Shown piece by piece: positions 21,492-58,316 of a stretch of 64,000 bases of DNA. The stretch is from Candidatus Latescibacterota bacterium. GTDB taxonomy: Bacteria > Latescibacterota > CBDCVA01. The position numbers were made by a program, and so were the translations under genes. The stretch is taken from positions 28,389 to 92,388 of the forward strand of contig CBDCVA010000001.1 in NCBI GenBank assembly GCA_965222935.1, in the 5' to 3' direction. Each line of letters begins with the position of its first letter. Positions within the stretch are counted from its first letter, which is position 1. A model generated the notes under the pieces. It had not been told where the DNA came from. It saw nothing but the letters and a program-made list of their open reading frames with translations, and did no database searches.

Positions 21492-21492
21492 T

Positions 21493-22254
21493 TCAATCCT
21501 CCTCGTCTGGATGGGCAAATGTCCGCTTCAAGGCGCCCCATGAAGTCTCCCTGACCACGGTATATGGGTATCGAAAAGTTTCTGGGTCGCGCTCCTCGCC
21601 GTTTATCGTCGCTGAGCGAAGGCGCAGGTGATTCTTCATATGGTACTGGTCGTTAGCGCTTCCCGATTGTATTAGCATCCCATCCACGCTAAAATATGGT
21701 ATACCAAGGCCAGGGCTAAAGTACACTTGTCGCCATTCATAGTAGTACGACACTCCGCCTCTCGGGTAGCCATCTGGCGTGTATAACGAGGGCTTCTCAT
21801 CTCCGTGTCCCAGAAGTTCAAAGTTCCCCCATCCACGTGCTACTACTAGCGTATCTGATTCTGTCTCGGGAATACTGTATGACTGATCGCCGGACTTGAA
21901 TTGGTATAGCGCGATGTCGCCTTCCCGTCCTCGAAATACCAGATTATTGCCGTCGAACCTCACTTTTTGACCCGCTGGAAAGAAGGAGAGTACGGGGGGA
22001 TCTTCGTAAGGCATGGGACTGAAGACGTAATAGGTATACCCCTCGATGTCTTCCGTGTGCGTAATGCGAATGGTTATATAGCGACCGGTTCTATCACCTG
22101 AACCTTCCGTTAGATAATTGAAATAGCCATGCTCGTAATCCCAACTGTTGCCCACCGCTAGCGGCAGCATTTGGTCAGCAGTTGCCACCGACTCCTGGGC
22201 TTCAGCCCATGACGCAGCCTACAACCCCATGATCAAGACGGCTATGGTTTTCAT
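21493..22254 (-). pseudogene. Secreted hypothetical protein (P2) interrupted by an in-frame TAG inside its signal peptide
   Basis: The frame reads MKTIAVLIMGL-TAG-AASWAEAQESVATADQML..., with the TAG at 22219-22221 in frame with the 231-aa ORF. The C-terminus is RETSWGALKRTF. Confidence 0.55.
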
Positions 22255-22431
22255 CATCTGCATCCTATGGGTTAGGGTAGGCTCGACCAACTTAAGTCCG
22301 TCCTCGCGTCTCAGCCATTCTCCACCGCCAGTGGACGGGCACTCAAGCTGAGTGCGGTGTGAGCTATATCCTATGCCTGTCATGGCACGACCTCTTTTAA
22401 GGGGTAGGAAAGCTAATATACCCTGATCTCA

Positions 22432-23903: not shown

Positions 23904-24064
23904 GGCACGACCTCCTTTAAGGGGGAGTCACCCGTTCCGATTCCACGCGAAGCCCACCCTTGATATATGAAACCTACCCTCATGGCAAAAGGGTTTTTCT
24001 GCAAGGGGCCTGTCGCCGTCCCCCTGGCGCTCGGGCCTGTTCTCGGGATTTGAAATCCAGTCGG

Positions 24065-24093: not shown

Positions 24094-24099
24094 CGGGTG

Positions 24100-24290
24100 A
24101 CGCCACGGGTTCGGGTGCCGATCCAGTATGGGATCGGAACAGGGAAGTGCGGTTTTGAAGCCGCCGCGGCCCCGCCACTGTGAGCGATGCACCACCCCGG
24201 CGCACGATGCCACTGGGGGCATGAGCCCTTGGGAAGGCGCGCACGGGGGTGTCGCGAGCCAGGAAACCTGCCCGGCCCAGACGGTCGCAC
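24100..24290 (+). promoter_or_regulatory. Cobalamin (B12) riboswitch
   Basis: The hallmark segments appear in order: AGGGAAGTGCGGTtttgAAGCCgccGCGGCCCCGCCACTGT, then GCCACTGGG...GGGAAGGCG, then the B12 box AGCCAGGAAACCTGCC (24257-24273). Confidence 0.85.
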
Positions 24291-42283: not shown

Positions 42284-42313
42284 TTGACACGCCTCGAGGA
42301 TGGGGTGTATCCT
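42284..42313 (+). promoter_or_regulatory. Candidate promoter of the Wzi/GT2/radical-SAM operon (TTGACA-18 nt-TATCCT)
   Basis: The -10 element ends 8 nt before the ATG at 42322 and there is no SD sequence. This suggests a leaderless or near-leaderless transcript. Confidence 0.4.
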
Positions 42314-42321
42314 CCGCGTTG

Positions 42322-44028
42322 ATGTCCGACCGGCCTCAGAGGTTCCTGGCAGTTCTCCTTTTGTCCTGCCTCTCGGCTGGGGCGCTACGGGCCGCGGAAC
42401 CCGTCTCGACCTACCTCCCTCTCGATCACCGCGCTTACGATGCCCTCGAACGCTGGGAGGCCAAGGGCCTCCTGCCCCGCCTGGCCGATGGCACCCGGCC
42501 GCTCTCCCGGCTCGACGTCGCCCGTGCCCTCGACCGGGTGTGGGGCGCGCGCGACCAGGAGCCGGGCCTGTCGTCGGTCGAACGGGCGGATCTCGTGTGG
42601 CTCGCCGACGAATTCGCTATCGAGTTGGAGGCGTTGGACGCAGGCCTCAAGGGGAAACGTCCCGATCGCGAGCGTGGGCTCCGCAGGTTGCTGAGAGGCG
42701 GCCCCCTGGCCCGCTGGGAGAGGTCCGACGCCACGCTGGAAGTGGACCTGATGGTCAAGGGCGAGGCGATCGTGGAGCGGGGCGACCTGCGCGAGACGAC
42801 CCGCGTGACCACCAGCGGGGGCATCGCCCGAGGAACGCTGGGGGAGACGTTCGCCTTCTATAGCCGCTTTCGCGAGACGCGGGAGCGGGGCACCAAGTTC
42901 TACAACACCCCCGATGTCCTCAGCACACGGCGCGTCGGCTTCGTCAAGCTGCGCGACGATTTCGCCGATTACGACGAGGGCCTTGCCTACGTACTGGTCC
43001 GCCTGAGGTGGTTTCTGATCGAATTCGGCCGCGATGCGCTCCAATGGGGCCCCGGTGCGCGCGGCAGCCTGATCCTTTCGCCCTCGGCGCCTCCCTTCAC
43101 GATGGTCAAGCTGGAAACGCATTACGGTCGGCTCAAGTACATCGCGCTGGGCGGCGTCTTGCGCACCGAAGAACTCGATTCCTTGAAGATTTACCAGGTC
43201 GGACCCCTCCTGCGCAAGGATTTCCGAAAGAAGGCCATCGCCGCGCACCGGCTGGAAGTGGCGGCGACCGACTGGCTGGATGTGGCCGCCAGCGAGGTCG
43301 TCATCTACGGCGACCGGGGTCTGGACATGGCGTACTTCAACCCCGCCATCGTCCTGCGGGCCGCAGAGCGCGACCAGGGAGACCGCGACAACGCCACCGC
43401 GGCGCTGGACCTGGAGGCCCGCTTGCCCCGCCGAATCAAAATGTACGGGGCGCTCTTCATCGACGACCTGACCAAGTCGAAGGTCGGCACGAGCTTCTTC
43501 GGCAACAAGCTGGCCTGGTTGGGCGGTGCCTTCTGGGTGGACCCCTGGCGGCTCGTGAACACCGACTTCCGCTTCGAGTACGCGCGGTTGGACCCCTTCG
43601 TCTACACCCACACCTTCGGGGTCAACGCCTTCACCAACTGGCGGGCCTCGCTCGGGCATTGGCTTGATCCCAACTCGGACGAGTGGTATCTTGAGGCGCG
43701 GCATCGGCCCCATCGGTCTCTCCGGGTCGAGTTGGCGCTTTGGGGTCGGCGGCACGGAGCGAATCCGCCGGGAGCCAACTTCGGAGGGGACCTGCGTCTT
43801 GGCTCGTCGGTGCAAGCCGGCGCGGGGGGCGAGTTTCTCGCGGGCGAGCGTGAGCGCGAAACGGCGTTTCGGACCCGGCTCGTCTACGAGCCGATCCGCG
43901 ATCTGCTCGCCGTTTTCGATTATCGGCACCGACAGTTGCGCAACGTCCTTGGGAAGGATCTTTCGGGGCCAAGGGGGGACGAACTGCGTCACGAGTTCCG
44001 TTTCATCATCGGCTACAACGATTTCTGA
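42322..44028 (+). CDS. Capsule-assembly Wzi-like outer-membrane protein
   Basis: Signal peptide FLAVLLLSCLSAGALRA. The N-terminal motif PLDHRAYDALERWEAKGLL...RPLSRLDVARAL is typical of the Wzi family (from memory). The rest is beta-rich and ends in an aromatic residue (YNDF). Confidence 0.65.
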   Translation: MSDRPQRFLAVLLLSCLSAGALRAAEPVSTYLPLDHRAYDALERWEAKGLLPRLADGTRPLSRLDVARALDRVWGARDQEPGLSSVERADLVWLADEFAIELEALDAGLKGKRPDRERGLRRLLRGGPLARWERSDATLEVDLMVKGEAIVERGDLRETTRVTTSGGIARGTLGETFAFYSRFRETRERGTKFYNTPDVLSTRRVGFVKLRDDFADYDEGLAYVLVRLRWFLIEFGRDALQWGPGARGSLILSPSAPPFTMVKLETHYGRLKYIALGGVLRTEELDSLKIYQVGPLLRKDFRKKAIAAHRLEVAATDWLDVAASEVVIYGDRGLDMAYFNPAIVLRAAERDQGDRDNATAALDLEARLPRRIKMYGALFIDDLTKSKVGTSFFGNKLAWLGGAFWVDPWRLVNTDFRFEYARLDPFVYTHTFGVNAFTNWRASLGHWLDPNSDEWYLEARHRPHRSLRVELALWGRRHGANPPGANFGGDLRLGSSVQAGAGGEFLAGERERETAFRTRLVYEPIRDLLAVFDYRHRQLRNVLGKDLSGPRGDELRHEFRFIIGYNDF

Positions 44029-45176
44029 TGTTTCTCCTGACGCTGGCGGCGGGCTACACGCTGCTTTTGGCCGTTCTGCTTTGGGGCTGGCGGCGGGACG
44101 TTCGCCGTGCGCGGGAGCGCCCTCCGGCCACACCCGAGGCGACCCCTTTCGTCTCGGTTCTGGTCGCGGCCCGGAACGAGGCGCGGACGTTGGGCCGCTG
44201 CCTCGAAGCGCTTCTAAGGCAGGATTATCCGAGCGATCGCTACGAGGTCATTGTCATCGACGACCGTTCGACGGATGCGACTTGCGAGGTCGCCCGAATG
44301 CATGCAGCGCGTGACGCGAGGATACAGGTCGTCCTCAAGCGTTCCGAGGGGCCCTACCGCTGCCCGAAGAAGAGTGCGCTTGCAGCGGCGATGACGAAAG
44401 CGCGCGGGGAGATCATCGCGACGACCGACGCGGACTGCTGGGCTGAGACGGGATGGCTCCGGGCGATGGTGAGCCGATGCACCCCTGAAGTCGGCATGGT
44501 CGTCGGCGCCTCACCGGTTGCCGGGGCGCGGACGGCCCTCGAGCACCTGGCCGCGCTGGAATCTCTTCTGGTGCCCATCCTGGCTCGCTCGGCGATCGGC
44601 CTGGGCTGGCCGCTGGCGTGCACGGGGCGGAGTCTGGCCTACCGCCGCGAGGCTTTCGACCAAGTCGGCGGTTTCTCGCGCATCGGCGGTGTCGTCGGCG
44701 GGGACGACGTGTTGCTGCTGCACGAGCTGCGCAAGAGGACGCAATGGAGGGTCGCTTTCTGTCCACTGGAGGGGGCGCTCGTGTGGACGCTCCCCGATCG
44801 CGGCACGACGGCGGCGCGTTCGCACCGTCTGGTCCGCCGCGCTGCGAAAGCGCTCTGGCAGGCGCCTACGCAGATCCTTTGCGGGCTGTGGGTCGTGGCG
44901 TTCTACCTGGCTCTCGTCTGGGCGGCCTTTGATGCGCTCGGAGGGGGAGATCCGATGCCCTTGGTCCTTGCGCTGGCTGCCAAGCTCGGAGTGGACGCGC
45001 TGGTCATGACGCGGGGGACCCGGGCCTTCAAGGTTCGCGCGCTGGAGCGCTGGATCCCGCTGGGGAGCCTCTTGCACGTCATCGCCTTTCCTACGGCGCA
45101 CCTGCTGGGCGTACTCGGGACTTACCGCTGGCCGGCGAACGCTCCTCTGGCGACCCCCTCGGGGAGCGAGGCGTGA
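44028..45176 (+). CDS. Membrane-embedded family-2 glycosyltransferase (copy 1)
   Basis: N-terminal TM, then SVLVAARNE...VIVIDDRSTDAT...TTDADC, then a C-terminal TM bundle. The Q/RxxRW position is degenerate (HRLVRRAAK). The start overlaps the Wzi stop (TGATG). Confidence 0.85.
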   Translation: MFLLTLAAGYTLLLAVLLWGWRRDVRRARERPPATPEATPFVSVLVAARNEARTLGRCLEALLRQDYPSDRYEVIVIDDRSTDATCEVARMHAARDARIQVVLKRSEGPYRCPKKSALAAAMTKARGEIIATTDADCWAETGWLRAMVSRCTPEVGMVVGASPVAGARTALEHLAALESLLVPILARSAIGLGWPLACTGRSLAYRREAFDQVGGFSRIGGVVGGDDVLLLHELRKRTQWRVAFCPLEGALVWTLPDRGTTAARSHRLVRRAAKALWQAPTQILCGLWVVAFYLALVWAAFDALGGGDPMPLVLALAAKLGVDALVMTRGTRAFKVRALERWIPLGSLLHVIAFPTAHLLGVLGTYRWPANAPLATPSGSEA

Positions 45177-46240
45177 CCCTCGCCGCGCGTGCCGCTTACG
45201 CCTGGCGCAAGTTCGGCTGGGCGCTCACGCCCCGCAGGCTGGCCAACTTGGCGATGGTGACCGCCTCGTGGCACTTCTCGCGGTGGACCGGGCGGGCGGT
45301 CGTCTGGGGTACGCCGCCGGTGTTGATGGCCGAGCCCACCGATGTCTGCAACCTGCGCTGCCCGCTCTGCCCATCGGGGGCGCTCACGCTCACGCGGCCG
45401 CGGGGATACATGGATCTGGAAACCTTTCGGCGTTCTGTGGACACCCTGGCCGACCGGCTGTGCCTGCTTCTGCTCTGGAACCAGGGCGAGCCACTCCTGC
45501 ACCCCGATTTCTGCGAGATGGTGCGTTACGCGACGAGCAAGCGCATCCCCACCATGACCAGCACCAACGGCAATTGGCCCCGCGCGATGGAGGCCGACCC
45601 CACGCCGCTCGTGCGCTCTGGTTTGCGGGAGCTCATCGTCTCGCTGGATGGGGCGACGTCCGAGACCTATCGCGTCTACCGCAAAGGCGGGGATTTCGAC
45701 CGCGTGCTTCAGAACATCCAGAACGTGCAGCGGGTCAAGCACGAACTGGGGAGCCCCACGCCGCTTTTAACCCTCCAGTTCATCGTCATGCGTCACAACG
45801 AAAGCGAACTGGAAGACATCCAGAGGCTGGCGAGAGAGCTGGGAGTCGAGCGGCTTGCGGTCAAGACCTGTCAGGTCTATACCGAGGGGGAAGCGCAGAC
45901 CTACCTGCCCGGTGACGAGCGGTTCAGCCGCTACGAACGCTCGCCCGACGGCGGCTTCCGCATGAAGGCGAAAAGCCTTCCCAACGTCTGCCGGCATCTG
46001 TGGTTCAACACCGTCGTCAACTGGAACGGGACCGTCACCCCCTGCTGCTTCGATAAGGACGCCGAATTCCCCCTGGGCCAGGCGGCAAACGGCCAACCCT
46101 TCTCTGCGGTGTGGCATGGGGCGGCCTACCAGACCTTCCGGCGGCGGGTGATGGAGCGGCGTCCGGGGATCGCCATGTGCACCAACTGCTCGGAGGGGCT
46201 TAAAGGTGGGCTCTTCGTGAGCGTGGGGCCCATCGCGTGA
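45173..46240 (+). CDS. Radical SAM enzyme with a SPASM-like Cys-rich C-terminal domain (copy 1)
   Basis: CNLRCPLC (CX3CX2C) and C-terminal CRHLW...TPCCFD...MCTNC. The start is a GTGA overlap with the upstream GT2. Confidence 0.85.
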   Translation: MTLAARAAYAWRKFGWALTPRRLANLAMVTASWHFSRWTGRAVVWGTPPVLMAEPTDVCNLRCPLCPSGALTLTRPRGYMDLETFRRSVDTLADRLCLLLLWNQGEPLLHPDFCEMVRYATSKRIPTMTSTNGNWPRAMEADPTPLVRSGLRELIVSLDGATSETYRVYRKGGDFDRVLQNIQNVQRVKHELGSPTPLLTLQFIVMRHNESELEDIQRLARELGVERLAVKTCQVYTEGEAQTYLPGDERFSRYERSPDGGFRMKAKSLPNVCRHLWFNTVVNWNGTVTPCCFDKDAEFPLGQAANGQPFSAVWHGAAYQTFRRRVMERRPGIAMCTNCSEGLKGGLFVSVGPIA

Positions 46241-47451
46241 AAGCCCTGGCACACGCGGCGACCGCCGGTCTGGCCGTCACGGGGGCGCTCTACGGCGGAT
46301 TCTTGATCGCTTACGCGGTGGGCTTGTGGCGGCTGCGGCGCGGGCGTTCGGACGTCCAGCCTTCGGTCAGCGTCGTCGTGCCGGCGCGTGACGAGGAGGA
46401 AAACATCGGGGCGTGTCTGGCAGCGCTATCCGAACAAAAGTACCCGACGGACCGCTTGGAGATCGTCGTGGTGGACGACCACTCGGCGGATGCCACCGCG
46501 GACATCGTCTCGGAGTGGGCGGGGCGGGATGACCGAATCCGGGGCATTCGGGCCCCCGAGCCGCCGGCTGGCGTTGCGCCCAAGAAGCACGCCGTCGAGG
46601 TGGGAATCGAGGCCGCGAGCGGTGAGGTGATTGCGACGACGGATGCCGATTGCGTGCCCGGACCGGGCTGGGTTCGGGGACTCGTGCGCCACCTGACGCC
46701 CGACGTGGGGGTCGTTGTGGGCTTGACTGAGTACGACCTGAAGGGCGTGCGATGGCGTTTTCTTCAGGGTATGAACGCGCTGGATTTTCTCACCCACACC
46801 TTTTGTCGAGCCGGTGCCCTGGGCTTGGGCTGGGCCTGCGATGCCAATGCCAACAACTTCGCCTACCGCCGCAGTGCCTATGAAGCGGTGGACGGGTTCG
46901 GGGAGGCGCGGCGCCTTACCTCCGGTGACGACGCCATGCTCATGACGCGGATTGCCACGCGGACCTCCTGGCGCGCCGCTTTCGCGTCTGAGCCGGAAAC
47001 CTTCGTCTGTACGCGGCCCGAAGCCTCCTGGCGCGCGTTCTGGCGGCAGCGGATGCGCTGGGCCTCGAAGGGCACCGCCTACCGGCCGTCTTTCGTCATT
47101 TTCTTGACGGGCGCCTTCGGGTTCTTCGCGCTCTTGTCCACGACGCTTCCTTTCGCTCTTGCCGCACCCAGGGCGTTCAGCGCGCCCCTTTGGGCGTGGC
47201 TGGCCAAAGGAGGGGTTGAAGCCTTCGTCATGGGCGTGGGTGCCTGGCGGTTCCGCCGCTTCGGGCTTTTACCTTATTTTCTACCGGCTCAACTCCTGCA
47301 CGCGCCCGTTATCGTGCTCGCGGTCTTGGGCGGCCATCTGACCCGGTTCGAGTGGAAGGGCCGGGCGCTGGGGCGGAGCGTCCCGGTCGCCCCTGCCGGG
47401 GCCACGGATACAGCGAGGGTGGATGCTGATGCGCTATCTCCCGGTAAGTAA
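46237..47451 (+). CDS. Membrane-embedded family-2 glycosyltransferase (copy 2)
   Basis: SVVVPARDE...IVVVDDHSADAT...TTDADC...QRMRW, plus N- and C-terminal TM helices. GTGA overlap with the upstream gene. Confidence 0.88.
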   Translation: MKALAHAATAGLAVTGALYGGFLIAYAVGLWRLRRGRSDVQPSVSVVVPARDEEENIGACLAALSEQKYPTDRLEIVVVDDHSADATADIVSEWAGRDDRIRGIRAPEPPAGVAPKKHAVEVGIEAASGEVIATTDADCVPGPGWVRGLVRHLTPDVGVVVGLTEYDLKGVRWRFLQGMNALDFLTHTFCRAGALGLGWACDANANNFAYRRSAYEAVDGFGEARRLTSGDDAMLMTRIATRTSWRAAFASEPETFVCTRPEASWRAFWRQRMRWASKGTAYRPSFVIFLTGAFGFFALLSTTLPFALAAPRAFSAPLWAWLAKGGVEAFVMGVGAWRFRRFGLLPYFLPAQLLHAPVIVLAVLGGHLTRFEWKGRALGRSVPVAPAGATDTARVDADALSPGK

Positions 47452-48388
47452 ATACGCCCGGACGGCGGCTTACACGATGCGGAATCTCGCCAGTGGCGAT
47501 ATCCGCTATCCGTTCTACGCCTCCTACAAGATCACCCGCCGCTGCAACTTCACCTGCAGCTACTGTGAGATCTGGCGTGAGCCGAAACCGGAACTCTCGC
47601 CCGAAGACGCGCTGCGCGTGATCGAGAATATCGGGCGTTCCAGCACCGCCATGCTCGCGCTGGAAGGGGGCGACCCGCTTCTGCGCGACGATATCGAAGA
47701 GGTGCTCCGGTTCGCGCACAAGCAGCCGTTCTACATCCTGTTCGTGACTAGCGAGCGCAATCTCCTAGAGCGGCCGATGGAGCGGCTGACGCGCTACATC
47801 GATTTCCTGCATATCTCCATTGATGAGGGGCACCGCAATCTGGAGATGTTCGACGAGCTGGAAGAATACGTCAGGTGGCACTCGACCGTTTGCGTTCAGA
47901 TCGTCGTCCGTGCGCGGGACCTGCCGGAACTCCCGTGGAAGATCGAGCGCTGCGCTCGCGCGGGCGCCAAGGCGCTCATCATGCCCGCGGTGCATCTGGA
48001 TCGCACCAAGAACCAATACCCCGAGATCGAGGCGTTCAGGCGCGATTGCCGGGCGCTCGATAACCGCTTTCCCGACACGGTGATCACCCCCGAGCCGTAC
48101 CTGGAGCAGATTGCCAAGCCCCACGGCTGCAGCGCGTCCTCGATCATCATCGATTCCGACGGCGCTCTCTTCTACCCATGTCGTATCCTGGGCACCAAGC
48201 CCGTGAACCTCGTCGAACAGGACTTAATGGCGTATATCGAATCTCCCGAGGCCCTGGAGTTCCGTAGAGTGATGAAGGTCTGCGAGCGGCGCTGCGGCTG
48301 GTATCAGTACTTCGCCACGACGGCCTTCGTCTCGCCCTCGACCTTCATGGGTGCCATCCGGCCCTATCTGAAAGACCTCGTCCGGTGA
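47423..48388 (+). CDS. Radical SAM enzyme (copy 2)
   Basis: CNFTCSYC motif, with C-terminal cysteines (HGC...YPC...VCERRC). It overlaps the GT2 stop by 29 nt. Confidence 0.85.
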   Translation: MLMRYLPVSKYARTAAYTMRNLASGDIRYPFYASYKITRRCNFTCSYCEIWREPKPELSPEDALRVIENIGRSSTAMLALEGGDPLLRDDIEEVLRFAHKQPFYILFVTSERNLLERPMERLTRYIDFLHISIDEGHRNLEMFDELEEYVRWHSTVCVQIVVRARDLPELPWKIERCARAGAKALIMPAVHLDRTKNQYPEIEAFRRDCRALDNRFPDTVITPEPYLEQIAKPHGCSASSIIIDSDGALFYPCRILGTKPVNLVEQDLMAYIESPEALEFRRVMKVCERRCGWYQYFATTAFVSPSTFMGAIRPYLKDLVR

Positions 48389-49620
48389 GCGGGTGGGGGC
48401 TTCTGATGGCGGCGCCGGGGGTGCTCTACCTCTTGGCTGCCGCCGTGCTGGCGCTTCGCGTCCGGGGTGTCCGCCCCGGGAAACTGGCTCTCCACCCAAA
48501 GGCCTCCGTGTTGCTCCCGGTGCGCGATGAGGCGGAGAACATCGAGGCCGCATTGGGGTGTCTGTCCCGGCAGACCTATCCGCTGGATCAGCTCGAGATC
48601 CTGGTCATTGACGACGGCTCTGGGGATGGCACGGCGGAGCGTGCTAGGCGCGCCGCGAAAGGCCCCCCTCGGGTGCGTGTGCTCAAGACGCCGCCCCTCG
48701 ATCCGGGCATCACGGGCAAGCAGGGGGCGCTCGACTACGGGTTGCGGCGCGCGACGGGGACGGTGATTCTGACGACGGATGCGGACGTACGCGTATCGCC
48801 GACGTGGGTGGCGGAGCACGTCTCGAGGCTACCCCCGCATGGCGAGCGCCTCATTTGCGGGTTGGCCCTCCCCGCGGGTACGAAGACGGGCTTGGGGCGG
48901 CTCTTGTCGTGGTTTGAGGCGGGGGAGCTGCTCCTGCTCCAGACGGTGGCTGCGGGATGGACGGGCCTCGGACGGCCCCTGTCGGGTTTCGGGAAAAACC
49001 TGAGTTACGAGCGGAAAGTCATGGAAGACCTCGGTGGCTACCGCGCGCTGGGCTTCGCTCCCAACGAGGACATGCGTCTCGTTCAGCGCGCAGGACGCCG
49101 CGCCGTTGGCTGGGCCGGCGGTCGCGCGGCGACGGTGCTGGTCTTACCCTCATCGGGTCTGGGGACGCTCCTGCGGCGACGGGCGCGGTGGGCGCGCCAT
49201 GGCTACCGGACGGACCCGTGGCTGTTCGGTTCGTCGCTGGTGGCCTTTCTGAGCGCGCTGGGGACGCTCGGGGCCATAGGCAGTGTCATAGCGCTCGGGA
49301 ATGGCTGGCTCGGGGTGCTGGGCGCCGGACCGCTCGCGCTGGGGAACCTCCTGCTCCTGGCCCGTGGCGCCGCGTTTGCGGGTCGGCCCAGGCTCGTGTG
49401 GTCGTGGCTGCTCGTGCTGGTGGGATACCCGTTCTACGTCATGGCGCTCGGATTGTGGACGGTACTGGGTCCGCGTGAGACCGCCTGGCGCGGGCGGCCG
49501 ATGGAAGCGCCGCCACCCCCATCGAAGCCGCGCAGCCGACGCTACGGGAGGCGCAGGCGGGGACAATCGGCGCAGCGTCAGCGTCACGGTGCATCGAGAC
49601 CGCAAGGAGAAAGGCGGTGA
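48385..49620 (+). CDS. Membrane-embedded family-2 glycosyltransferase (copy 3)
   Basis: SVLLPVRDE...ILVIDDGSGDGT...TTDADV...RRARW with a C-terminal TM bundle. GTGA overlap. Confidence 0.88.
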   Translation: MSGWGLLMAAPGVLYLLAAAVLALRVRGVRPGKLALHPKASVLLPVRDEAENIEAALGCLSRQTYPLDQLEILVIDDGSGDGTAERARRAAKGPPRVRVLKTPPLDPGITGKQGALDYGLRRATGTVILTTDADVRVSPTWVAEHVSRLPPHGERLICGLALPAGTKTGLGRLLSWFEAGELLLLQTVAAGWTGLGRPLSGFGKNLSYERKVMEDLGGYRALGFAPNEDMRLVQRAGRRAVGWAGGRAATVLVLPSSGLGTLLRRRARWARHGYRTDPWLFGSSLVAFLSALGTLGAIGSVIALGNGWLGVLGAGPLALGNLLLLARGAAFAGRPRLVWSWLLVLVGYPFYVMALGLWTVLGPRETAWRGRPMEAPPPPSKPRSRRYGRRRRGQSAQRQRHGASRPQGERR

Positions 49621-50627
49621 GGCTCCCACCCCTCCTGCTGCACTATTACGTCACGTACCGCTGCAACCTGCGCTGCCACTACTGCAACATCCCACTCCAG
49701 CCGGAACCGACCGATCCCGTGGGCTCCTCGTTGGCGACGCTCAAGGCCGTCGTAGCTCAGGCGCGGAAGGTCGGCGCCCGCTTCGTGGATTTCACGGGTG
49801 GAGAACCCCTCCTTTACAAGGCTCTGCCCGACGCACTGGCCTGGGCCAAGTCCCTCGGCTACTGGACGAGCATTACCACCAACTGTACGCTCTACCCCCG
49901 ACGGGCGGACGCCTTGCGCGGTCTGGTTGACCTGCTGCACTTTTCGCTCGATTCGGCCCATCTCGGGGCGCACGATGCTCAGCGCGGCAGCGGCAACTGG
50001 GCCGAGGTGATGACGGCGCTCGATCTGGCGGAGCGGCTGGGCGAGACGCCCGACGTTTTGTTCACCGTGACGCAGGCGAACGTCGGCGAGATGGAGAGCA
50101 TGGTACGGCTGGCGCAGGAGCGTCGCTTGATTCTGATCGTCAACCCCGAGTTCACGTACTTCGGCGGGAACGGGTCGCTCACACAAGCGCAATTTCAAGA
50201 GATCGCCGGCTACGCGTGGGAGCCCTACGTCTACCTGAACCGCGCCTTCCTCAGCCTGCGTCGGCAAGGCGGAAACCGGATCGACAAGCCCCGATGCCGG
50301 GCGGTCACCTCCACCATCGCCGTCTCCCCCGATGGCTGCCTCCTGCTTCCCTGCTACCATCACCACACCGAGCGCATCCCCATCAGGGATAACCTCCGGG
50401 AACTGCTGGATTCCCCAGCCGTCGGCCGCGCACTCCGAATGCAGGGCCGCTACGATTTCTGCGAAGGCTGCGCCATCAACTGCTACATGGACCCCTCCTT
50501 CTGTTACCGGCCCGATGGCCTCTTCTTCGAGAGCCTCGCCTCCAAGGCGAAGTACGGCTTCGACAAATATCTTCGCCGGGCCATTGCGGAACGCCTTGCC
50601 CCGCGTTCGCGGAACGGGGCATCGTGA
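49617..50627 (+). CDS. Radical SAM enzyme with a twitch/SPASM-like C-terminus (copy 3)
   Basis: CNLRCHYC, with C-terminal PCYHHH...FCEGCAINC. GTGA overlap. Confidence 0.85.
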   Translation: MRLPPLLLHYYVTYRCNLRCHYCNIPLQPEPTDPVGSSLATLKAVVAQARKVGARFVDFTGGEPLLYKALPDALAWAKSLGYWTSITTNCTLYPRRADALRGLVDLLHFSLDSAHLGAHDAQRGSGNWAEVMTALDLAERLGETPDVLFTVTQANVGEMESMVRLAQERRLILIVNPEFTYFGGNGSLTQAQFQEIAGYAWEPYVYLNRAFLSLRRQGGNRIDKPRCRAVTSTIAVSPDGCLLLPCYHHHTERIPIRDNLRELLDSPAVGRALRMQGRYDFCEGCAINCYMDPSFCYRPDGLFFESLASKAKYGFDKYLRRAIAERLAPRSRNGAS

Positions 50628-50634
50628 GTACGGG

Positions 50635-51918
50635 ATGTTGACTCGTGTTGAAATAGAGAATTACAGACCTCTGGCTCAGGTGTCTCAAAGTCTAGGGGGT
50701 CTCTGCATCTTGGTGGGTCCAAATGCGTCAGGAAAAACAGCGTTCCTTGACGCACTGTCCTTCGTGCGTGACCTCCTGACCGAAGGGCTAGAAACTGCGG
50801 TTCTGTCGCGTGCGCCGGGCCAAGATCTTGTCTTTTTCGGTTCGGTGCCCAAGGGTGGCAAAACGCAAAACACCAACGGGTTCGGGATCGCCCTTGAGCT
50901 ATCGATCCCTCAGAAATTACGTCGCAAGCTCCCCAACCAGTACTCGCTATGCCGCTACGAGGTCTTCATCAACCCGGCTCATGTACCGGAGTTCGTATCG
51001 GAAAACCTGTGGCTGCTTCAAGGTCCTTCGTCTTCTAAGCGTCTCGAACGCCTTGGTTTAATGGATCCCCCCTTGCCGATATCTCTTGAGACGCCGCCTC
51101 TTAGTCCACGCTGGGTGGTCACGCCACAAGCACGTAAGGGATGGAGAAGAATAGTCAGTAAGACCGCAGGTGGGAATGACTACTTCCGTAGTGAAACTAC
51201 CGGGTGGAATGCACCTTTTCGCCTCGGGGTTCATAAATCTGTTCTGGCTAACCTGCCTGAAGAGGAGGATCGGTTTCCGGTAGCAACTTGGTGCAAGCGG
51301 TTGCTCATAGAGGGGATCCGACCACTTTTACTCGATACGTCATCGATGCGCCTTCCCCGTCCGGCCATGCCGTCACCAACCCTTGAGGCCGATGGATCCA
51401 ACCTCGCCTCGGTCGTCGGCTGGCTGCACCATAATGACCGACCTCGATTCGATCAATGGCTGAACCACGTCCGCACGATCATCCCCGAACTGGCAACCGT
51501 GAAGGCAGGAGGTGGTGTCGAGCGCTTGACATATCTGATGGCAAAGGAGGCTAGTGGCGTCCAGACGCCGGGCTGGCTCATGTCGGATGGCACACTGCGC
51601 TTGTTGGCCCATACGATAGTGGCGTACCTGCCAACCTCCGAACGCATCTACCTCATCGAAGAGCCCGAGAATGGCATCCATCCCCGCGCCATCGAGGCGG
51701 TGTACGACTCTCTCTCGTCCGTCTACGACGGCCAAGTCCTCGTCGCCACGCATTCGCCCGTACTCTTGAGCGTCGCCGATCCCGCCGAGGTGCTCTGCTT
51801 CAGCAAGGACAAGGATGGCGCCACGCATATCGTCCGAGGCGATAAGCACCCCGCCCTCAAAGACTGGCACGGCGAGCCCAACCTGAGCGTCCTCTACGCC
51901 GCGGGTATCCTCGGCTAG
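50635..51918 (+). CDS. ABC/SMC-type (AAA_21-like) ATPase
   Basis: ATG at 50635. Walker A GPNASGKT, signature-like MSDGTLR, Walker B IYLIEEPENGIHP and H-loop VATHSP. The 5' extension in the track ORF overlaps the radical-SAM gene and is rejected. Confidence 0.85.
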   Translation: MLTRVEIENYRPLAQVSQSLGGLCILVGPNASGKTAFLDALSFVRDLLTEGLETAVLSRAPGQDLVFFGSVPKGGKTQNTNGFGIALELSIPQKLRRKLPNQYSLCRYEVFINPAHVPEFVSENLWLLQGPSSSKRLERLGLMDPPLPISLETPPLSPRWVVTPQARKGWRRIVSKTAGGNDYFRSETTGWNAPFRLGVHKSVLANLPEEEDRFPVATWCKRLLIEGIRPLLLDTSSMRLPRPAMPSPTLEADGSNLASVVGWLHHNDRPRFDQWLNHVRTIIPELATVKAGGGVERLTYLMAKEASGVQTPGWLMSDGTLRLLAHTIVAYLPTSERIYLIEEPENGIHPRAIEAVYDSLSSVYDGQVLVATHSPVLLSVADPAEVLCFSKDKDGATHIVRGDKHPALKDWHGEPNLSVLYAAGILG

Positions 51919-51920
51919 AC

Positions 51921-52550
51921 ATGGACGGAGTCGCCACAAGAGACCTGTTCGTGTTGCTGCCCGATTCTCACATGCGGGCCGTATTCGACGTCGTGCTCAG
52001 CCGTCCCCAGGAGTTGGGCATCCGGCCCATCACGTACGATGTCTACGCCCATCCTCATCGCGATTCCGGCGTCCACCACGAGGGCGCAGCGTTCGTCCGC
52101 ACTCGCGCAAGGGGCTACAGCCGCTTCGTCATGGCCTTCGACCGCGAGCACTACGGCACGAAGGATCCGCCGCTGGCGAAAGAACTATCCGAGGCAGTAA
52201 GGGTGCAGCTCGCTCGCATGGACCTCGCCGACCGCACCGTCGCCCTCGTCCTCGATCCCGAGCTCGAGGTTTGGGCCTGGAGCGATCTGGCCGATGTGGC
52301 GCGTACGATGGGCTGGAGCTCCCCCAACGAGATCAAACAGTGGTTGGTGACCAACGACATCGAATGGCCCCCGTCCGACCCGAAACGGGCCTTCCACGCG
52401 GCATTGAGGGAACGCGGCCTGAAGCGGTCCGCCGCCGTATACTCGGAGTTAACGGCAGCCGCACGTCTCGACCGCTGCACCGATCCCGCATTCGCCGCGC
52501 TCGTCCGTGCCCTGCGCGAGTGGTTCCCACTCATCTCGGACGAATCCTGA
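51921..52550 (+). CDS. Uncharacterized 209-aa partner of the ATPase
   Basis: It starts 2 nt after the ATPase stop and I can recognise no catalytic motif. Conserved-looking acidic positions are LLPDS, FVMAFDREH and LVLDPELEVWAW. A DUF4276/TOPRIM-like assignment is only a guess. Confidence 0.7.
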   Translation: MDGVATRDLFVLLPDSHMRAVFDVVLSRPQELGIRPITYDVYAHPHRDSGVHHEGAAFVRTRARGYSRFVMAFDREHYGTKDPPLAKELSEAVRVQLARMDLADRTVALVLDPELEVWAWSDLADVARTMGWSSPNEIKQWLVTNDIEWPPSDPKRAFHAALRERGLKRSAAVYSELTAAARLDRCTDPAFAALVRALREWFPLISDES

Positions 52551-52596
52551 TTCCGACGGAGGGCCTGAAGACCCGCTTAGCCATAGGGAGGTGGCG

Positions 52597-56459: not shown

Positions 56460-58316
56460 CTACGTCGCCCGGCTTACACGGGTTCCGGGATTGGACACGC
56501 TGTACTGGCCGAAGCGATACGAGGTCGCCTGGAGCCGATACAGTTCGGCATACTCGCCATCAGCGGACAACAGTGCGGCGTGTGTCCCTTGCTCGATTAG
56601 GCGACCCTCCCGTAGCACCAGAATGCGGTCTGCAATCTGACATGACGCCAATCTATGGGAGATGAGGATGGCCGTGTTCTCTTGTGCCATGTCGGCAAAG
56701 TGCCGATAGACTGCCGCTTCTGCCTTCGCATCGAGCGCTGATGCCGGCTCGTCTAGAATGAGAATCTCGGCGGGTCGGAAGTAGGCGCGGGCAATCGCCA
56801 GCTTCTGCCATTGTCCCACCGATAGCTCCGCGCCTGCATGGAACTCCTTACCCAGCGGGGTGTCCAGACCGCGTGGCAGCACAGTTACCGCCTCCTGGGC
56901 GCCACTGCGCGTGAGGACTGTCTCCAGGCGCGCTTCATCGGTTGCCCCTTCGAGCCAACCGAAGGTGATGTTTTCCTGGACAGTCGTCTGGTAACGAAGA
57001 AAGGACTGGAAGACGGACCCCAATTTTGTGTACCAGTCGGTGAGAGCAATCTCGTTGAGGTCATTTCCATCAACCACAATGCGGCCCGATGTCGGTCGGT
57101 ACAGGCCCATCAAGAGCTTGACGAGCGTGGTTTTGCCCGCACCATTCTCCCCCACGAGCGCGATCCGCTCACCGGGCCGGAGCGACAAATCGATATTAGA
57201 GAGGGCCGGTCGTGCGGCGCCCGGATAGGTGAAGGAGACATTTTCCATCACGATAGGCTCGGTGATTGCGTGCTCCAGCCGTCGGCCGGCTTTCAGGTCG
57301 ACACGCGGGGTATCCATCAACGCGAAGAAATCCTGCAAATAGTGAAGGTCATTGTAGAGCAAAGACCCACCCCAGATCAGATCTGCATAATTGACTTGGA
57401 AGCTTTCAATCGCTGCGAAGAGTGCAGCAGCCGCACCGATACTGATGTGGCCGTTGACCAGCAGACCGACACTCAATCCAATCGCCAAGATATGGACCAC
57501 GCCATTTAGTCCGTCGGAGACCACTGTGCGTCTCGCCTCATGCGCTGCGAGTTGTAGCCTCTCTGCATGGAGGCCACGACGGAGCTCCCCAGCCTGACCG
57601 AGCAGCCACCGCCCAAGGCTGAATAGCCGGATCTCGGCGGCTGCCTCCCGACCGGTCATTAAGCCGGTATATACCTCGAAGCGGCGTTCTTGCGGGGTCT
57701 GCGCACGCTCCATGAGATACCGCTGACGAAGGAGACGCTCGCGCAGGAACACACCTGGGGTCGTGCCGACAGCCAGTAACACCGGCAGTCCCCAGTGGAA
57801 TTGCCCTAAGTAGAGGAGGAGCGACATCAACGCGACGAAGAGTGAGAGACTTTCCCAAAGGAAAGACATGGTGTGGCCCAGGCGTCCGACTGTTCTGCGT
57901 CGCACTCGGTGCAATAGGTCATAGTGCTCGTCGTGCTCGAACCACTCCAGCGGCATAGATTGAGCCTGTTGCAGGCAGCGCTCCTCGACGAACGCAGCCA
58001 ACACTTCCTGATGATGTCGGGCAAGCATATCTCTGCCGTAGAGCACTGCAGTTTGCAGGAGTGCGAGCAGGGCGAGGACTAGCCCCCACAAGAGACCGGC
58101 TCCTACTGAGGCGTTTCCTTCCACTACCTGCTGTGCTGTCTCTATGAGCCGACGCAGTACATGCACGTCTGCCACAGCAAACAGCCCCATGCCGGCACTC
58201 AATACGGTCAGGAGCGTAGCACCTCTGGCATCGGCAGCCAGCAGCAAGCGCATTGTACGGGGGAGATACCTTAGGCGCCGCCAAGACCGAGCATTGTTGT
58301 CCTGTGCAGTGCTCAT
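56460..58316 (-). CDS. ABC exporter, fused permease/ATPase (subunit 2)
   Basis: Six-TM N-terminal half, with GENGAGKTT, LSVGQWQ and ILILDEP. The ATG at 58316 overlaps the upstream stop (TGATG). Confidence 0.88.
   Translation of the reverse strand: MSTAQDNNARSWRRLRYLPRTMRLLLAADARGATLLTVLSAGMGLFAVADVHVLRRLIETAQQVVEGNASVGAGLLWGLVLALLALLQTAVLYGRDMLARHHQEVLAAFVEERCLQQAQSMPLEWFEHDEHYDLLHRVRRRTVGRLGHTMSFLWESLSLFVALMSLLLYLGQFHWGLPVLLAVGTTPGVFLRERLLRQRYLMERAQTPQERRFEVYTGLMTGREAAAEIRLFSLGRWLLGQAGELRRGLHAERLQLAAHEARRTVVSDGLNGVVHILAIGLSVGLLVNGHISIGAAAALFAAIESFQVNYADLIWGGSLLYNDLHYLQDFFALMDTPRVDLKAGRRLEHAITEPIVMENVSFTYPGAARPALSNIDLSLRPGERIALVGENGAGKTTLVKLLMGLYRPTSGRIVVDGNDLNEIALTDWYTKLGSVFQSFLRYQTTVQENITFGWLEGATDEARLETVLTRSGAQEAVTVLPRGLDTPLGKEFHAGAELSVGQWQKLAIARAYFRPAEILILDEPASALDAKAEAAVYRHFADMAQENTAILISHRLASCQIADRILVLREGRLIEQGTHAALLSADGEYAELYRLQATSYRFGQYSVSNPGTRVSRAT

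What the first reader, a model, noticed from the sequence alone, without database searches (positions are those of the whole stretch)
42284..50627. Wzi-like outer-membrane protein followed by three consecutive GT2-synthase / radical-SAM pairs in one overlapping operon
Seen in sequence:
- Seven same-strand genes have essentially no intergenic DNA. The Wzi stop and GT2-1 start overlap as TGATG at 44026-44030. There are GTGA stop/start overlaps at 45173, 46237, 48385 and 49617, and a 29-nt overlap at 47423.
- The order is strictly alternating: GT2, rSAM, GT2, rSAM, GT2, rSAM.
- Each GT2 has an N-terminal TM helix, DD.S.D.T and TDAD motifs and a C-terminal TM bundle. Copies 2 and 3 carry QRMRW and RRARW; copy 1 is degenerate at that site.
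- Each radical-SAM protein has CX3CX2C plus a Cys-rich C-terminal (SPASM/twitch-like) region.
- No precursor-peptide ORF, Wza/Wzc, Wzx/Wzy or ABC exporter lies within the operon.

Established knowledge: Q/RxxRW membrane GT2s are synthase-type enzymes that polymerise and translocate (cellulose, PNAG and hyaluronan synthases). Radical-SAM enzymes that remodel sugars exist (BtrN, DesII). One GT2 plus radical-SAM pairing is known in hopanoid side-chain synthesis (HpnI/HpnJ).

Inference: this is an assembly line in which each glycosyl transfer is coupled to a radical modification, producing an unusual surface glycan or glycolipid that is handled at the outer membrane by the Wzi-like protein. I know of no characterised system with this triplicated alternating architecture.
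Basis: partly seen in the sequence, partly recalled or inferred. Interest (0 to 1): 0.85.

Follow-up and report, generated by a model that had tools for sequence, protein, structure and literature searches.

The report
Glycosyltransferase and radical-SAM pairs operon
This is a real seven-gene operon: an outer-membrane Wzi-like protein followed by three membrane sugar-transferases, each paired with its own radical-SAM enzyme. It is a compact version of an uncharacterised gene cluster found across many little-studied bacterial phyla, and in part in archaea, that most likely builds a chemically tailored surface glycolipid or lipid-linked glycan.

Summary
Seven translationally coupled + strand genes (42319-50627) encode a Wzi-like protein, then GT2, rSAM, GT2, rSAM, GT2, rSAM. 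The same operon occurs in independent assemblies, including a 4.2-Mb contig at 27x, so it is not a chimera.

The three pairs are not recent duplicates. Each rSAM is a separate old family with about 50%-identical orthologues in other phyla. Each GT2 belongs to its own clade, with its own motif and a fixed position.

Related clusters keep the same gene order and add a MprF-type flippase-like protein, a cytoplasmic CE4 deacetylase and a CehA-like hydrolase. The modules also occur alone:
- Wzi-GT-rSAM1-GT
- GT-rSAM2
- GT-rSAM3

rSAM_2 is 47-53% identical in Thermoplasmata archaea. There it sits beside a flippase-like gene and other glycosyltransferases.

No protein reaches the cut-off of any curated family (HpnI/H, MftF/C, PgaC, NodC, BlsE).

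Best reading: stepwise assembly of a lipid-anchored glycan at the cytoplasmic face, with sugar tailoring by rSAM enzymes. The logic resembles HpnI/K/J and calditol synthase.

The claim that the GT2s are polymerising synthases is not supported. The product is unknown. I judge this a new variant of a known kind, of moderate to high interest.

The parts
42284..42313 (+). Sigma-70-like promoter candidate (TTGACA, 18-nt spacer, TATCCT) just upstream of the first gene
   Evidence: Consensus scan: 10 of 12 positions match. This is a consensus match only; the promoter type used by this phylum was not verified.
42319..44028 (+). Wzi-like outer-membrane protein with a signal peptide (569 aa from TTG; probably 568 aa from the ATG at 42322)
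   Evidence: PF14052 at E 3.7e-24, 85.9 bits against a cut-off of 30.1. One N-terminal hydrophobic segment. Orthologues at 28-35% identity over about 90% of the length sit next to GT2/rSAM clusters in L007, L018 and L091. No sequence match to any PDB chain, E. coli Wzi included.
44028..45176 (+). GT2_1: membrane GT2 (GT21/HpnI-like) of the 'first GT' clade, in which the W of Q/RxxRW is lost
   Evidence: PF00535, PF13641 and PF13506. The clade motif is QRKRH or RQVRY in orthologues and HRLVRR here. It is the GT upstream of rSAM_1 in L004/L005 and L091.
45173..46240 (+). rSAM_1: radical SAM enzyme with a SPASM domain (CX3CX2C plus 5 invariant C-terminal Cys)
   Evidence: PF04055 and PF13186. 1999 homologues, about 50% identical, in Latescibacterota and Gemmatimonadota. 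Always flanked by GT2s. Best PDB sequence hits are BlsE, PqqE and BtrN. Cys conservation.
46237..47451 (+). GT2_2: membrane GT2 with intact D,D,D,QRMRW motifs; the clade that always precedes rSAM_2
   Evidence: Pfam. The GT next upstream of rSAM_2 homologues scores 156-296 bits to GT2_2 and 132-184 to GT2_1 in all 17 bacterial loci that have one, adjacent in 16 and about 970 nt away in L032. Motifs. Best PDB hit is 6yv7, a membrane GT2.
47423..48388 (+). rSAM_2: twitch/SPASM-type radical SAM enzyme (CX3CX2C plus 4 invariant C-terminal Cys); likely start at 47429
   Evidence: PF04055. Tight family: only 28 representatives at E<=1e-30 among 1.84 billion. 47-55% identical in FCB (Fibrobacterota-Chlorobiota-Bacteroidota group) bacteria and in Thermoplasmata, Methanomassiliicoccales and Nitrososphaerales archaea. 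AF2 model pLDDT 87.9; fold matches SkfB, SuiB, BlsE, PqqE and viperin.
48385..49620 (+). GT2_3: divergent membrane GT2 (ED in place of GDD; RRARW); the clade that precedes rSAM_3
   Evidence: Pfam. Clade-specific 'T-ED' and QRxRW motifs are shared with the GTs upstream of rSAM_3 homologues in L015, L017, L024, L030, L031, L044 and L046.
49617..50627 (+). rSAM_3: radical SAM enzyme (CX3CX2C plus 5 invariant C-terminal Cys), distantly related to rSAM_2 and to TIGR03961
   Evidence: PF04055. TIGR03961 at 72 bits against a cut-off of 306. 2596 homologues at about 50% identity in Latescibacterota, Zixibacteria, KSB1 and Calditrichota. Occurs as DUF3108-GT-rSAM3-CehA-like in L007 and L092.

Best explanation
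The operon encodes a cytoplasmic-face assembly line for a lipid-anchored glycoconjugate, either a glycolipid head-group or a short lipid-linked glycan.

Proposed steps:
1. Three different GT21/HpnI/NodC-like membrane GT2s each add one sugar, or a few, in the order GT2_1, GT2_2, GT2_3.
2. Each addition is followed by its dedicated twitch/SPASM-type radical SAM enzyme. That enzyme abstracts a sugar hydrogen atom to tailor the newly added residue, for example by epimerisation, oxidation, deoxygenation or ring contraction to a cyclitol.
3. The finished molecule is moved outward and is held or organised at the outer membrane by the Wzi-like barrel.

What is shown:
- the gene content and the translational coupling;
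- the conserved, clade-specific GT-to-rSAM adjacency across phyla;
- the co-occurrence in sister clusters with a MprF-type flippase-like protein, a signal-less CE4 deacetylase, a GT28-like glycosyltransferase and a CehA-like metallohydrolase;
- the archaeal rSAM_2 orthologues embedded among glycosyltransferases and a flippase-like gene.

What is inferred:
- the lipid acceptor;
- that the rSAMs act after transfer rather than on the donor sugars;
- the chemistry of each rSAM;
- the role of the Wzi-like protein.
For: Domains and motifs:
- All three GT2s keep the catalytic motifs and the 1 + 2-4 hydrophobic-segment layout.
- The rSAMs have no hydrophobic segments and must work in the cytoplasm.

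Synteny, from my own HMM tally of 90+ loci:
- Canonical bacterial order: gt1, flippase-like, gt2, rSAM2, CE4, gt3, then rSAM3 or a GT28-like gene, then CehA.
- L031 reads gt, rSAM1, flippase-like, gt, rSAM2, CE4, gt, rSAM3. That is the window's order plus two genes.
- Modules occur alone: Wzi-GT-rSAM1-GT in Gemmatimonadota and Latescibacterota; GT-rSAM1-GT; DUF3108-GT-rSAM3-CehA; GT-rSAM2 (L020, L053).

GT clade matches position.

The accessory genes were identified by Pfam and NCBIfam. The CE4 proteins lack signal peptides.

In about 26 of about 52 archaeal loci the rSAM_2 orthologue sits between a flippase-like gene and a GT4-GT2 fusion, with a GT28-like gene nearby. In about 17 others it follows a GxGYxYP putative glycosidase. 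Archaea and bacteria share sugars, not lipid tails, so the common substrate is probably a sugar.

The best solved relatives of rSAM_1 and rSAM_2 include the sugar-acting enzymes BlsE, BtrN and DesII.

Precedent for GT followed by (deacetylase and) rSAM acting on a lipid-bound sugar: HpnI/HpnK/HpnJ and calditol synthase (PMC13459092; PMC9092360).
Against: - No product, acceptor or donor is known for any member.
- The window operon itself lacks the flippase-like, CE4 and CehA genes, and none was found among the window products scanned against Pfam. Its chemistry may therefore differ from that of the canonical cluster.
- The structural neighbours of rSAM_2 are mostly peptide-modifying SPASM enzymes and viperin. 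The fold gives no substrate information.
- The GT2 model was too poor (pLDDT 52) to show a lipid groove or a channel.
- The Wzi link rests on a Pfam profile match only.
- Q/RxxRW GT2s can also be processive.
Confidence: 0.5

Rival explanations
1. Donor-supply model. The rSAM enzymes act on soluble nucleotide sugars before transfer. Each makes an unusual activated sugar that its neighbouring GT2 then installs. The coupling would be 'make donor, then transfer', not 'transfer, then tailor'.
For: - rSAM_2 is 47-53% identical between bacteria and archaea, and nucleotide sugars are common to both.
- The closest folds and sequences include enzymes that act on nucleotides or nucleotide-linked sugars: viperin, MoaA, BlsE and DesII.
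- The rSAMs have no membrane segments.
Against: - In every conserved pair the gene order is GT first, then rSAM, with translational coupling.
- In the best precedents (HpnJ, calditol synthase) the radical step follows glycosyl transfer.
- The CE4 deacetylase next to rSAM_2 fits processing of an already transferred GlcNAc, as with NodB and HpnK.
Confidence: 0.2
2. Synthase-dependent exopolysaccharide system. The GT2s are processive, channel-forming synthases of the PNAG, chitin or hyaluronan type. The polymer is radical-modified and is anchored at the surface by the Wzi-like protein.
For: - D,D,D,Q/RxxRW motifs and a 1 + 3 TM layout like NodC and PgaC.
- Weak NCBIfam hits to PgaC and NodC.
- A CE4 deacetylase in sister clusters, as in Pga, Ica and Nod.
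- Wzi is a capsule lectin in E. coli (established knowledge).
Against: - PgaC scores 47-68 bits against a cut-off of 422, NodC 28-47 against 550, and CelA about 20-25 against 699.
- Three to six different GT2s in series is unlike the single-synthase systems.
- None of the seven operon proteins, and none of the window products scanned, matches a PgaA/BcsC-type porin or a PilZ domain. No window product scanned matched Wza/Wzc.
- The CE4 is cytoplasmic.
- A lipid-flippase-like gene is a core member.
- rSAM_2 clusters also exist in archaea, which have no outer membrane.
- GT2_1 lacks the acceptor-binding Trp.
Confidence: 0.15
3. Peptide- or cofactor-maturation system of the mycofactocin type: a rSAM/SPASM maturase plus a GT2 that glycosylates a peptide-derived product.
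For: - The best NCBIfam hit of GT2_1 and GT2_2 is MftF, at 85 and 94 bits.
- rSAM_1 hits MftC (63 bits) and the tungsten-enzyme maturase TIGR04317 (110 bits).
Against: - All scores are far below cut-off (280, 265, 380).
- The operon has no intergenic space for a precursor gene.
- No MftA, B, D or E is present.
- The same rSAMs in other genomes are always flanked by GT2s and not by small ORFs or peptidases.
Confidence: 0.03
4. Hopanoid side-chain pathway: true HpnI/HpnJ/HpnH orthologues that decorate bacteriohopanepolyols.
For: GT2_1 and GT2_3 align nearly end to end with the HpnI model, and rSAM_2 matches the N-terminal third of HpnH.
Against: - HpnI scores 35-65 bits against a cut-off of 310. 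HpnH scores 37 against 225.
- HpnJ is not among the 25 best NCBIfam hits listed for any of the three rSAMs.
- Pfam finds no B12-binding domain. HpnJ-type enzymes carry one (from memory).
- No product scanned in the window matches squalene-hopene cyclase or another hpn family.
- rSAM_2 orthologues are abundant in archaea, and archaea are not known to make hopanoids (established knowledge).
Confidence: 0.03

Closest known systems
HpnI / HpnK / HpnJ (bacteriohopanetetrol glucosamine to cyclitol ether)
   Same: - A membrane GT2 of the GT21-like type puts GlcNAc on a lipid.
- A deacetylase and then a radical SAM enzyme remodel the attached sugar.
- Sister clusters here have exactly GT2, rSAM and deacetylase adjacent.
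- GT2_1 and GT2_3 align end to end with the HpnI model.
   Different: - No family cut-off is reached.
- The rSAMs here are small twitch/SPASM types, not the B12-domain HpnJ type.
- The deacetylase in sister clusters is CE4 (from memory, HpnK belongs to a different deacetylase family, YdjC-like). It is absent from this window.
- No hopanoid genes are present.
- There are three GT/rSAM pairs instead of one.
- There is an archaeal branch.
Calditol synthase (Cds) of Sulfolobus acidocaldarius
   Same: - A radical SAM enzyme acts on a hexose already attached to a membrane lipid.
- rSAM_2 orthologues are likewise common in archaea, next to glycosyltransferases.
   Different: - Sequence relatedness to Cds could not be tested because no Cds sequence or model was available.
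- The archaeal hosts here are mainly sediment and soil Thermoplasmata, not acidophilic Sulfolobales.
NodC/NodB and PgaC/PgaB (chito-oligosaccharide and PNAG synthesis)
   Same: Small membrane GT2s with D,D,D,QxxRW motifs and one N-terminal plus about three C-terminal helices, next to a CE4 deacetylase (in sister clusters).
   Different: - Scores are far below cut-off.
- There are several distinct GT2s in series.
- Radical SAM partners are present.
- A flippase-like protein takes the place of a porin/TPR export partner.
- No acyltransferase is present.
Sugar-tailoring radical SAM enzymes of antibiotic pathways (BlsE, BtrN, DesII; from memory also NeoN, AviX12, AprD4, PtmC)
   Same: - rSAM core plus a Cys-rich auxiliary-cluster domain.
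- BlsE is the best PDB sequence hit of rSAM_1. It is also the only fold match of rSAM_2 that covers both proteins end to end (TM 0.66 / 0.65).
   Different: - Identity is 13-20% only.
- Those enzymes act on soluble secondary-metabolite intermediates in Actinomycetota or Bacillota, not in a membrane GT2 operon.
E. coli group 1 capsule Wzi
   Same: Same Pfam family (PF14052), a signal peptide, and genetic linkage to glycan synthesis genes.
   Different: - No pairwise sequence match to the solved Wzi.
- About 90 residues longer.
- No Wza/Wzb/Wzc or Wzx/Wzy partners.
- Linked to GT2/rSAM modules instead.

Membership tests
HpnI (TIGR03472) | Score at or above the curated equivalog cut-off (310 bits) | tested here: not met
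   GT2_1 64.8, GT2_2 35.4 and GT2_3 48.9 bits.
HpnI/HpnJ/HpnK hopanoid pathway | Genomic linkage to squalene-hopene cyclase and other hpn genes | tested here: not met
   No such match among the window products scanned against Pfam. The rest of the genome was not available.
HpnH (TIGR03470) / HpnJ | Equivalog score (225 bits for HpnH); B12-binding domain for HpnJ | tested here: not met
   rSAM_2 scores 36.9 bits to HpnH. HpnJ is not among the 25 best NCBIfam hits listed for any rSAM. Pfam finds no B12-binding domain.
Processive membrane synthases PgaC / NodC / BcsA | Equivalog scores (422 / 550 / 699 bits) | tested here: not met
   PgaC 47-68 bits, NodC 28-47 bits, CelA 20-25 bits with no listed hit for GT2_3.
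Processive membrane synthases PgaC / NodC / BcsA | D,D,D,Q/RxxRW catalytic motifs and a membrane-embedded C-terminal helix bundle | tested here: met
   Motifs are present in GT2_2 and GT2_3, and degenerate in GT2_1. There are 2-4 C-terminal hydrophobic segments. This feature is shared with the non-processive GT21 and HpnI families, so it does not discriminate.
Processive membrane synthases PgaC / NodC / BcsA | Processive polymerisation and a translocation channel | not testable with these tools
   The AF2 model of GT2_2 was unusable (pLDDT 52). Biochemistry is needed.
Mycofactocin system (MftC TIGR03962, MftF TIGR03965) | Equivalog scores (265 / 280 bits) and presence of the precursor MftA with MftB, D and E | tested here: not met
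   MftF 70-94 bits and MftC 28-63 bits. The operon has no room for a precursor gene.
Radical SAM superfamily, SPASM/twitch subclass | CX3CX2C cluster motif plus a C-terminal Cys-rich auxiliary-cluster domain | tested here: met
   PF04055 in all three. PF13186 in rSAM_1 only. Invariant C-terminal Cys number 5, 4 and 5. The rSAM_2 model superposes on SkfB, SuiB, BlsE, PqqE and anSME. Whether clusters are actually bound was not tested.
TIGR03961 (PTO1314 family rSAM) | Score at or above 306 bits | tested here: not met
   rSAM_2 65.3 and rSAM_3 72.0 bits. These are distant relatives only.
Wzi (PF14052) | Pfam gathering score (30.1 bits) | tested here: met
   85.9 bits over residues 169-474.
Group 1 capsule (Wzy-dependent, Wza-Wzb-Wzc) system | Wza, Wzc and Wzx/Wzy genes linked to wzi | tested here: not met
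   None found among the window products scanned or in the sister clusters examined.
Calditol synthase (Cds) | Sequence homology to Saci_1489 | not testable with these tools
   No Cds sequence or model was reachable. The original paper is not held.

The most novel reading that the evidence does not exclude
The three rSAM families are undescribed sugar-remodelling enzymes that work on lipid-bound sugars. Together with their cognate GT2s they would make a new class of carbocyclic or otherwise radical-modified glycolipid head-groups, analogous to calditol or to cyclitol ethers. One enzyme, rSAM_2, would be shared between FCB (Fibrobacterota-Chlorobiota-Bacteroidota group) bacteria and Thermoplasmata archaea. 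Such lipids would be candidate sources of orphan environmental lipid biomarkers and would represent a cross-domain transfer of a membrane head-group pathway.
Probability: 0.3. Interest if true: 0.8.

Novelty: new variant of a known kind. Interest (0 to 1): 0.6.

Why it matters
- The window's three radical SAM enzymes belong to three uncharacterised families. None matches a curated model above cut-off, yet each is highly conserved and tied to membrane glycosyltransferases across at least eight mostly uncultured bacterial phyla. One of them also occurs in archaea.
- Radical SAM chemistry on sugars already attached to lipids is known from only a few cases, namely HpnJ and calditol synthase, and neither has been reconstituted.
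- A system with three such steps in a row, available in compact operon form, is a tractable entry point for finding new sugar-tailoring reactions. It could also identify surface glycolipids of Gemmatimonadota-, Latescibacterota- and Zixibacteria-type organisms.
- It also gives a testable link between Wzi-family barrels and non-capsular glycoconjugates.

Tried and rejected
- Pair-wise duplication: rejected. The rSAMs are 23-29% identical to each other but about 50% identical to orthologues elsewhere. The GT2 clades are position-specific.
- Assembly chimera: rejected.
- Structure of GT2_2 from the three paralogues: pLDDT 52 and unusable, so no fold search was run on it.
- Fold search of rSAM_2: only generic SPASM/twitch neighbours, with no functional call.
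- PDB sequence search with the Wzi-like protein: no hit even at E <= 1.
- Literature: five full-text searches for this gene combination and one for gulose plus rSAM found no description of the cluster. The calditol synthase paper is not held.
- Taxon naming through cluster members: no names were returned. The host is only inferred to be a bacterium of the FCB (Fibrobacterota-Chlorobiota-Bacteroidota) group, like Gemmatimonadota or Latescibacterota, at 65% GC.
- Search for flippase-like, CE4 or CehA genes elsewhere in the window: none found.
- The GT2_3::rSAM_3 fusion ORF in L090 was considered as Rosetta-stone evidence. It was set aside as a probable frameshift artefact of a 2x assembly, which shows 125 gaps against the window.

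Full report
**1. Observation**

| Gene | Coordinates |
|---|---|
| Wzi-like | 42319-44028 |
| GT2_1 | 44028-45176 |
| rSAM_1 | 45173-46240 |
| GT2_2 | 46237-47451 |
| rSAM_2 | 47423-48388 |
| GT2_3 | 48385-49620 |
| rSAM_3 | 49617-50627 |

The junctions are TGATG at 44026, GTGA at 45173, 46237, 48385 and 49617, and a 29-nt overlap at 47423. The last is 23 nt if rSAM_2 starts at the second ATG, which the homologue consensus 'MRxLP' favours.

Pfam confirms PF14052 for the first protein (85.9 bits, cut-off 30.1). It confirms PF00535, PF13641 and PF13506 for the three GT2s and PF04055 for the three rSAMs. PF13186 (SPASM) is found only in rSAM_1. rSAM_2 and rSAM_3 nevertheless keep 4 and 5 invariant C-terminal cysteines across their families.

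A Kyte-Doolittle scan gives one N-terminal and 2-4 C-terminal hydrophobic segments per GT2, none in the rSAMs, and a signal-peptide-like segment in the Wzi-like protein. A sigma-70-like site (TTGACA, 18-nt spacer, TATCCT) lies at 42284-42313.

**2. The arrangement is real**

- An independent Logan assembly (L002) is 100% identical over 14.6 kb.
- The same seven genes in the same order lie on a 4.2-Mb contig at 27x (L094) and on an 80-kb contig (L093) of the same metagenome.
- They also lie, in the same order, in a relative at about 80% nucleotide identity from a different sample (L090).

**3. Not three copies of one pair**

The rSAMs are only 23-29% identical to one another. Each has hundreds to thousands of homologues:

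- rSAM_1: 1999 hits, the best non-self ones 50-55% identical, in Latescibacterota and Gemmatimonadota.
- rSAM_3: 2596 hits in Latescibacterota, Zixibacteria, KSB1 and Calditrichota.
- rSAM_2: 840 hits.

rSAM_2 forms a very tight family. In an exhaustive search of 1.84 billion cluster representatives, only 28 score E <= 1e-30. Scores then fall to generic rSAM level.

The three GT2s are about 35% identical paralogues, but each belongs to a clade with its own motif and its own position:

- The GT next upstream of rSAM_2 homologues always scores best to GT2_2 (156-296 bits against 132-184 to GT2_1). This holds in all 17 of the 22 bacterial cluster loci that have one; it is adjacent in 16 and about 970 nt away in L032.
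- The GT upstream of rSAM_1 is of the GT2_1 type. Its W is replaced by H or Y, and by R in the window.
- The GT upstream of rSAM_3 is of the GT2_3 type, with 'T-ED' in place of 'GDD'.

**4. The wider cluster**

I scanned GTDB species genomes with a rSAM_2 alignment and obtained 80 loci. I annotated them with HMMs built in-session and with Pfam and NCBIfam.

- The canonical bacterial arrangement is GT (type 1), MprF-type flippase-like protein (PF03706 / TIGR00374), GT (type 2), rSAM_2, CE4 polysaccharide deacetylase, GT (type 3), then rSAM_3 or a GT28-like GT, then a CehA/McbA-type metallohydrolase. It is seen in Calditrichota, LCP-89, Ignavibacteria, Bacteroidota and Acidobacteriota.
- Zixibacteria have Wzi, rSAM_1, flippase-like, CE4, GT, rSAM_2, rSAM_3 (L018, L025).
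- L031 has GT, rSAM_1, flippase-like, GT, rSAM_2, CE4, GT, rSAM_3. That is the window's order with two extra genes.

The modules also occur alone:

- Wzi-GT-rSAM_1-GT in a Gemmatimonadota contig and a Latescibacterota genome.
- GT-rSAM_1-GT in genomes of 5-8 Mb.
- DUF3108-GT-rSAM_3-CehA-like in KSB1 and in a 3.6-Mb genome that carries six GT2s, a methyltransferase, a flippase-like gene and a Wzi-like gene.
- GT-rSAM_2 alone in L020 and L053.

The window operon is therefore a compacted fusion of three old GT-rSAM modules behind the Wzi-like gene. It lacks the flippase-like, CE4 and CehA genes, and none of these was found among the window products scanned against Pfam.

**5. The archaeal branch**

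rSAM_2 orthologues at 47-53% identity are abundant in Thermoplasmata, Methanomassiliicoccales and Nitrososphaerales metagenome-assembled genomes.

- In about 26 of about 52 archaeal loci the gene is flanked by a divergently oriented flippase-like gene, a GT4-GT2 fusion glycosyltransferase, a conserved 655-aa protein of unknown function and a GT28-like GT.
- In about 17 others it follows a GxGYxYP putative glycoside hydrolase.

Bacteria and archaea share sugars and nucleotide sugars but not lipid tails. This argues that the rSAM_2 substrate is a carbohydrate moiety.

**6. What the proteins resemble**

No curated NCBIfam cut-off is reached by any of the seven proteins.

| Query | Model | Score (bits) | Cut-off (bits) |
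|---|---|---|---|
| GT2s | MftF | 70-94 | 280 |
| GT2s | HpnB | 72-79 | 379 |
| GT2s | HpnI | 35-65, nearly end to end for GT2_1 and GT2_3 | 310 |
| GT2s | PgaC | 47-68 | 422 |
| GT2s | CruG | 46-68 | 600 |
| GT2s | NodC | 28-47 | 550 |
| rSAM_1 | TIGR04317 | 110 | 380 |
| rSAM_2, rSAM_3 | TIGR03961 | 65, 72 | 306 |

- In the PDB, rSAM_1 is closest to the sugar-acting BlsE (E 8e-13), then PqqE, with BtrN matching the SPASM part.
- GT2_2 is closest to chain 6yv7, a membrane family-2 glycosyltransferase.
- An AF2 model of rSAM_2 (pLDDT 87.9) matches SkfB, SuiB, BlsE (TM 0.66 / 0.65, the only match covering both proteins), PqqE, viperin, anSME, AbmM and DesII. That is the twitch/SPASM architecture, with no specific functional assignment.
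- The GT2_2 model was unusable (pLDDT 52).

**7. Mechanism proposed**

The rSAMs, the signal-less CE4 deacetylases and the GT-A domains all work on the cytoplasmic side. Several different Q/RxxRW GT2s in series, together with a lipid-flippase-like core member, fit stepwise construction of a defined head-group or short glycan on a membrane lipid. They fit poorly with a single processive synthase.

Adjacent GT, rSAM and deacetylase genes mirror HpnI, HpnK and HpnJ, in which GlcNAc is placed on a hopanoid, deacetylated, and ring-contracted by a radical SAM enzyme. They also mirror calditol synthase, which acts on a hexose already attached to an archaeal lipid (PMC13459092; PMC9092360).

I therefore propose sequential glycosyl transfer by GT2_1, GT2_2 and GT2_3. 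Each transfer is followed by hydrogen-atom abstraction and tailoring of the sugar by the cognate rSAM. The product is then exported and is bound or organised at the outer membrane by the Wzi-like barrel.

The acceptor, the sugars, the timing of the radical steps and the Wzi role are all inferred. One weak extra hint: a Zn-dependent phospholipase C gene lies two genes upstream of the Wzi-GT-rSAM_1-GT module in two phyla. That would fit a diacylglycerol acceptor.

**8. Rivals**

- Donor-sugar synthesis by the rSAMs (0.2).
- Mycofactocin-like or RiPP maturation (0.03).
- True hopanoid decoration (0.03).

The evidence for and against each is given in the structured fields.

**9. Novelty**

I found no description of this cluster in the searchable literature, and there is no curated family for any of the three rSAMs. 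The logic of a GT2 followed by rSAM sugar tailoring has precedents. The three-module series, the Wzi link and the cross-domain rSAM_2 family do not. I rate it a new variant of a known kind, interest 0.6.

**10. Limits**

The host taxon is not named. It is inferred only to be a Gemmatimonadota- or Latescibacterota-like bacterium of the FCB (Fibrobacterota-Chlorobiota-Bacteroidota) group at 65% GC. Only 64 kb of its genome was available. No biochemical data exist for any family member.

Noticed in passing
window 50567-52594 (genes 50635-51918 and 51921-52550, + strand): A two-gene defence-type module starts 8 nt after the rSAM_3 stop. It comprises an AAA ATPase (NCBIfam MADS MAD3, 394 bits against a cut-off of 420; PADLOC HEC-01A) and a MAD4-like / HEC-01B partner. 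The 2-kb bin around it (50001-52000) has low GC (0.596). The module is a strain-specific insertion: the block is missing from L001 in the nucleotide alignment, and in L090, L093 and L094 rSAM_3 is followed directly by the DUF8173 gene. Only two of the MADS components are present.
   Followed up: partly
L001 17940-18386, corresponding to the gap between window 54614 and 54656: A sister strain carries a GmrSD_C-domain gene, which is defence-related, at a point where the window has nothing. The region downstream of the operon therefore behaves as a small variable defence islet.
   Followed up: no
window 24096-24289 (+), upstream of 24457-26736: A cobalamin riboswitch (RF00174, 82.5 bits) lies directly upstream of a TonB-dependent receptor gene. 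This is probably a BtuB-like B12 uptake unit.
   Followed up: no
window about 20000-24000: A low-GC stretch (0.53-0.57 against about 0.65) carries minus-strand ORFs that have only weak Reg_prop and FlgD_ig matches. It is possibly acquired DNA.
   Followed up: no
L028, L035, L036, L038 and about 22 other archaeal loci: Thermoplasmata carry a conserved cluster: flippase-like gene (minus strand), rSAM_2 orthologue, GT4-GT2 fusion glycosyltransferase, a 655-aa protein with no Pfam match, and a GT28-like GT. About 17 other archaeal loci instead have a roughly 1000-aa GxGYxYP protein directly upstream of the rSAM.
   Followed up: partly
L090 5917-8220: A single 767-aa ORF fuses GT2_3 and rSAM_3. The contig has 2x coverage and shows 125 gaps against the window, so a frameshift artefact is likely. 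If real, it would be Rosetta-stone evidence for the pair.
   Followed up: partly
L091 2504-3373 and the P0104 contig: A Zn-dependent phospholipase C gene lies on the same strand shortly upstream of the Wzi-GT-rSAM_1-GT module in both a Latescibacterota and a Gemmatimonadota genome. It is a possible hint at a diacylglycerol acceptor, or it may be mere synteny.
   Followed up: no
window 56460-60187 (- strand): Two adjacent ABC exporter genes, each about 625 aa (both with ABC_tran; ABC_membrane detected in one), lie 6 kb downstream on the opposite strand. They are not part of the operon, and they are absent from this position in L090.
   Followed up: no
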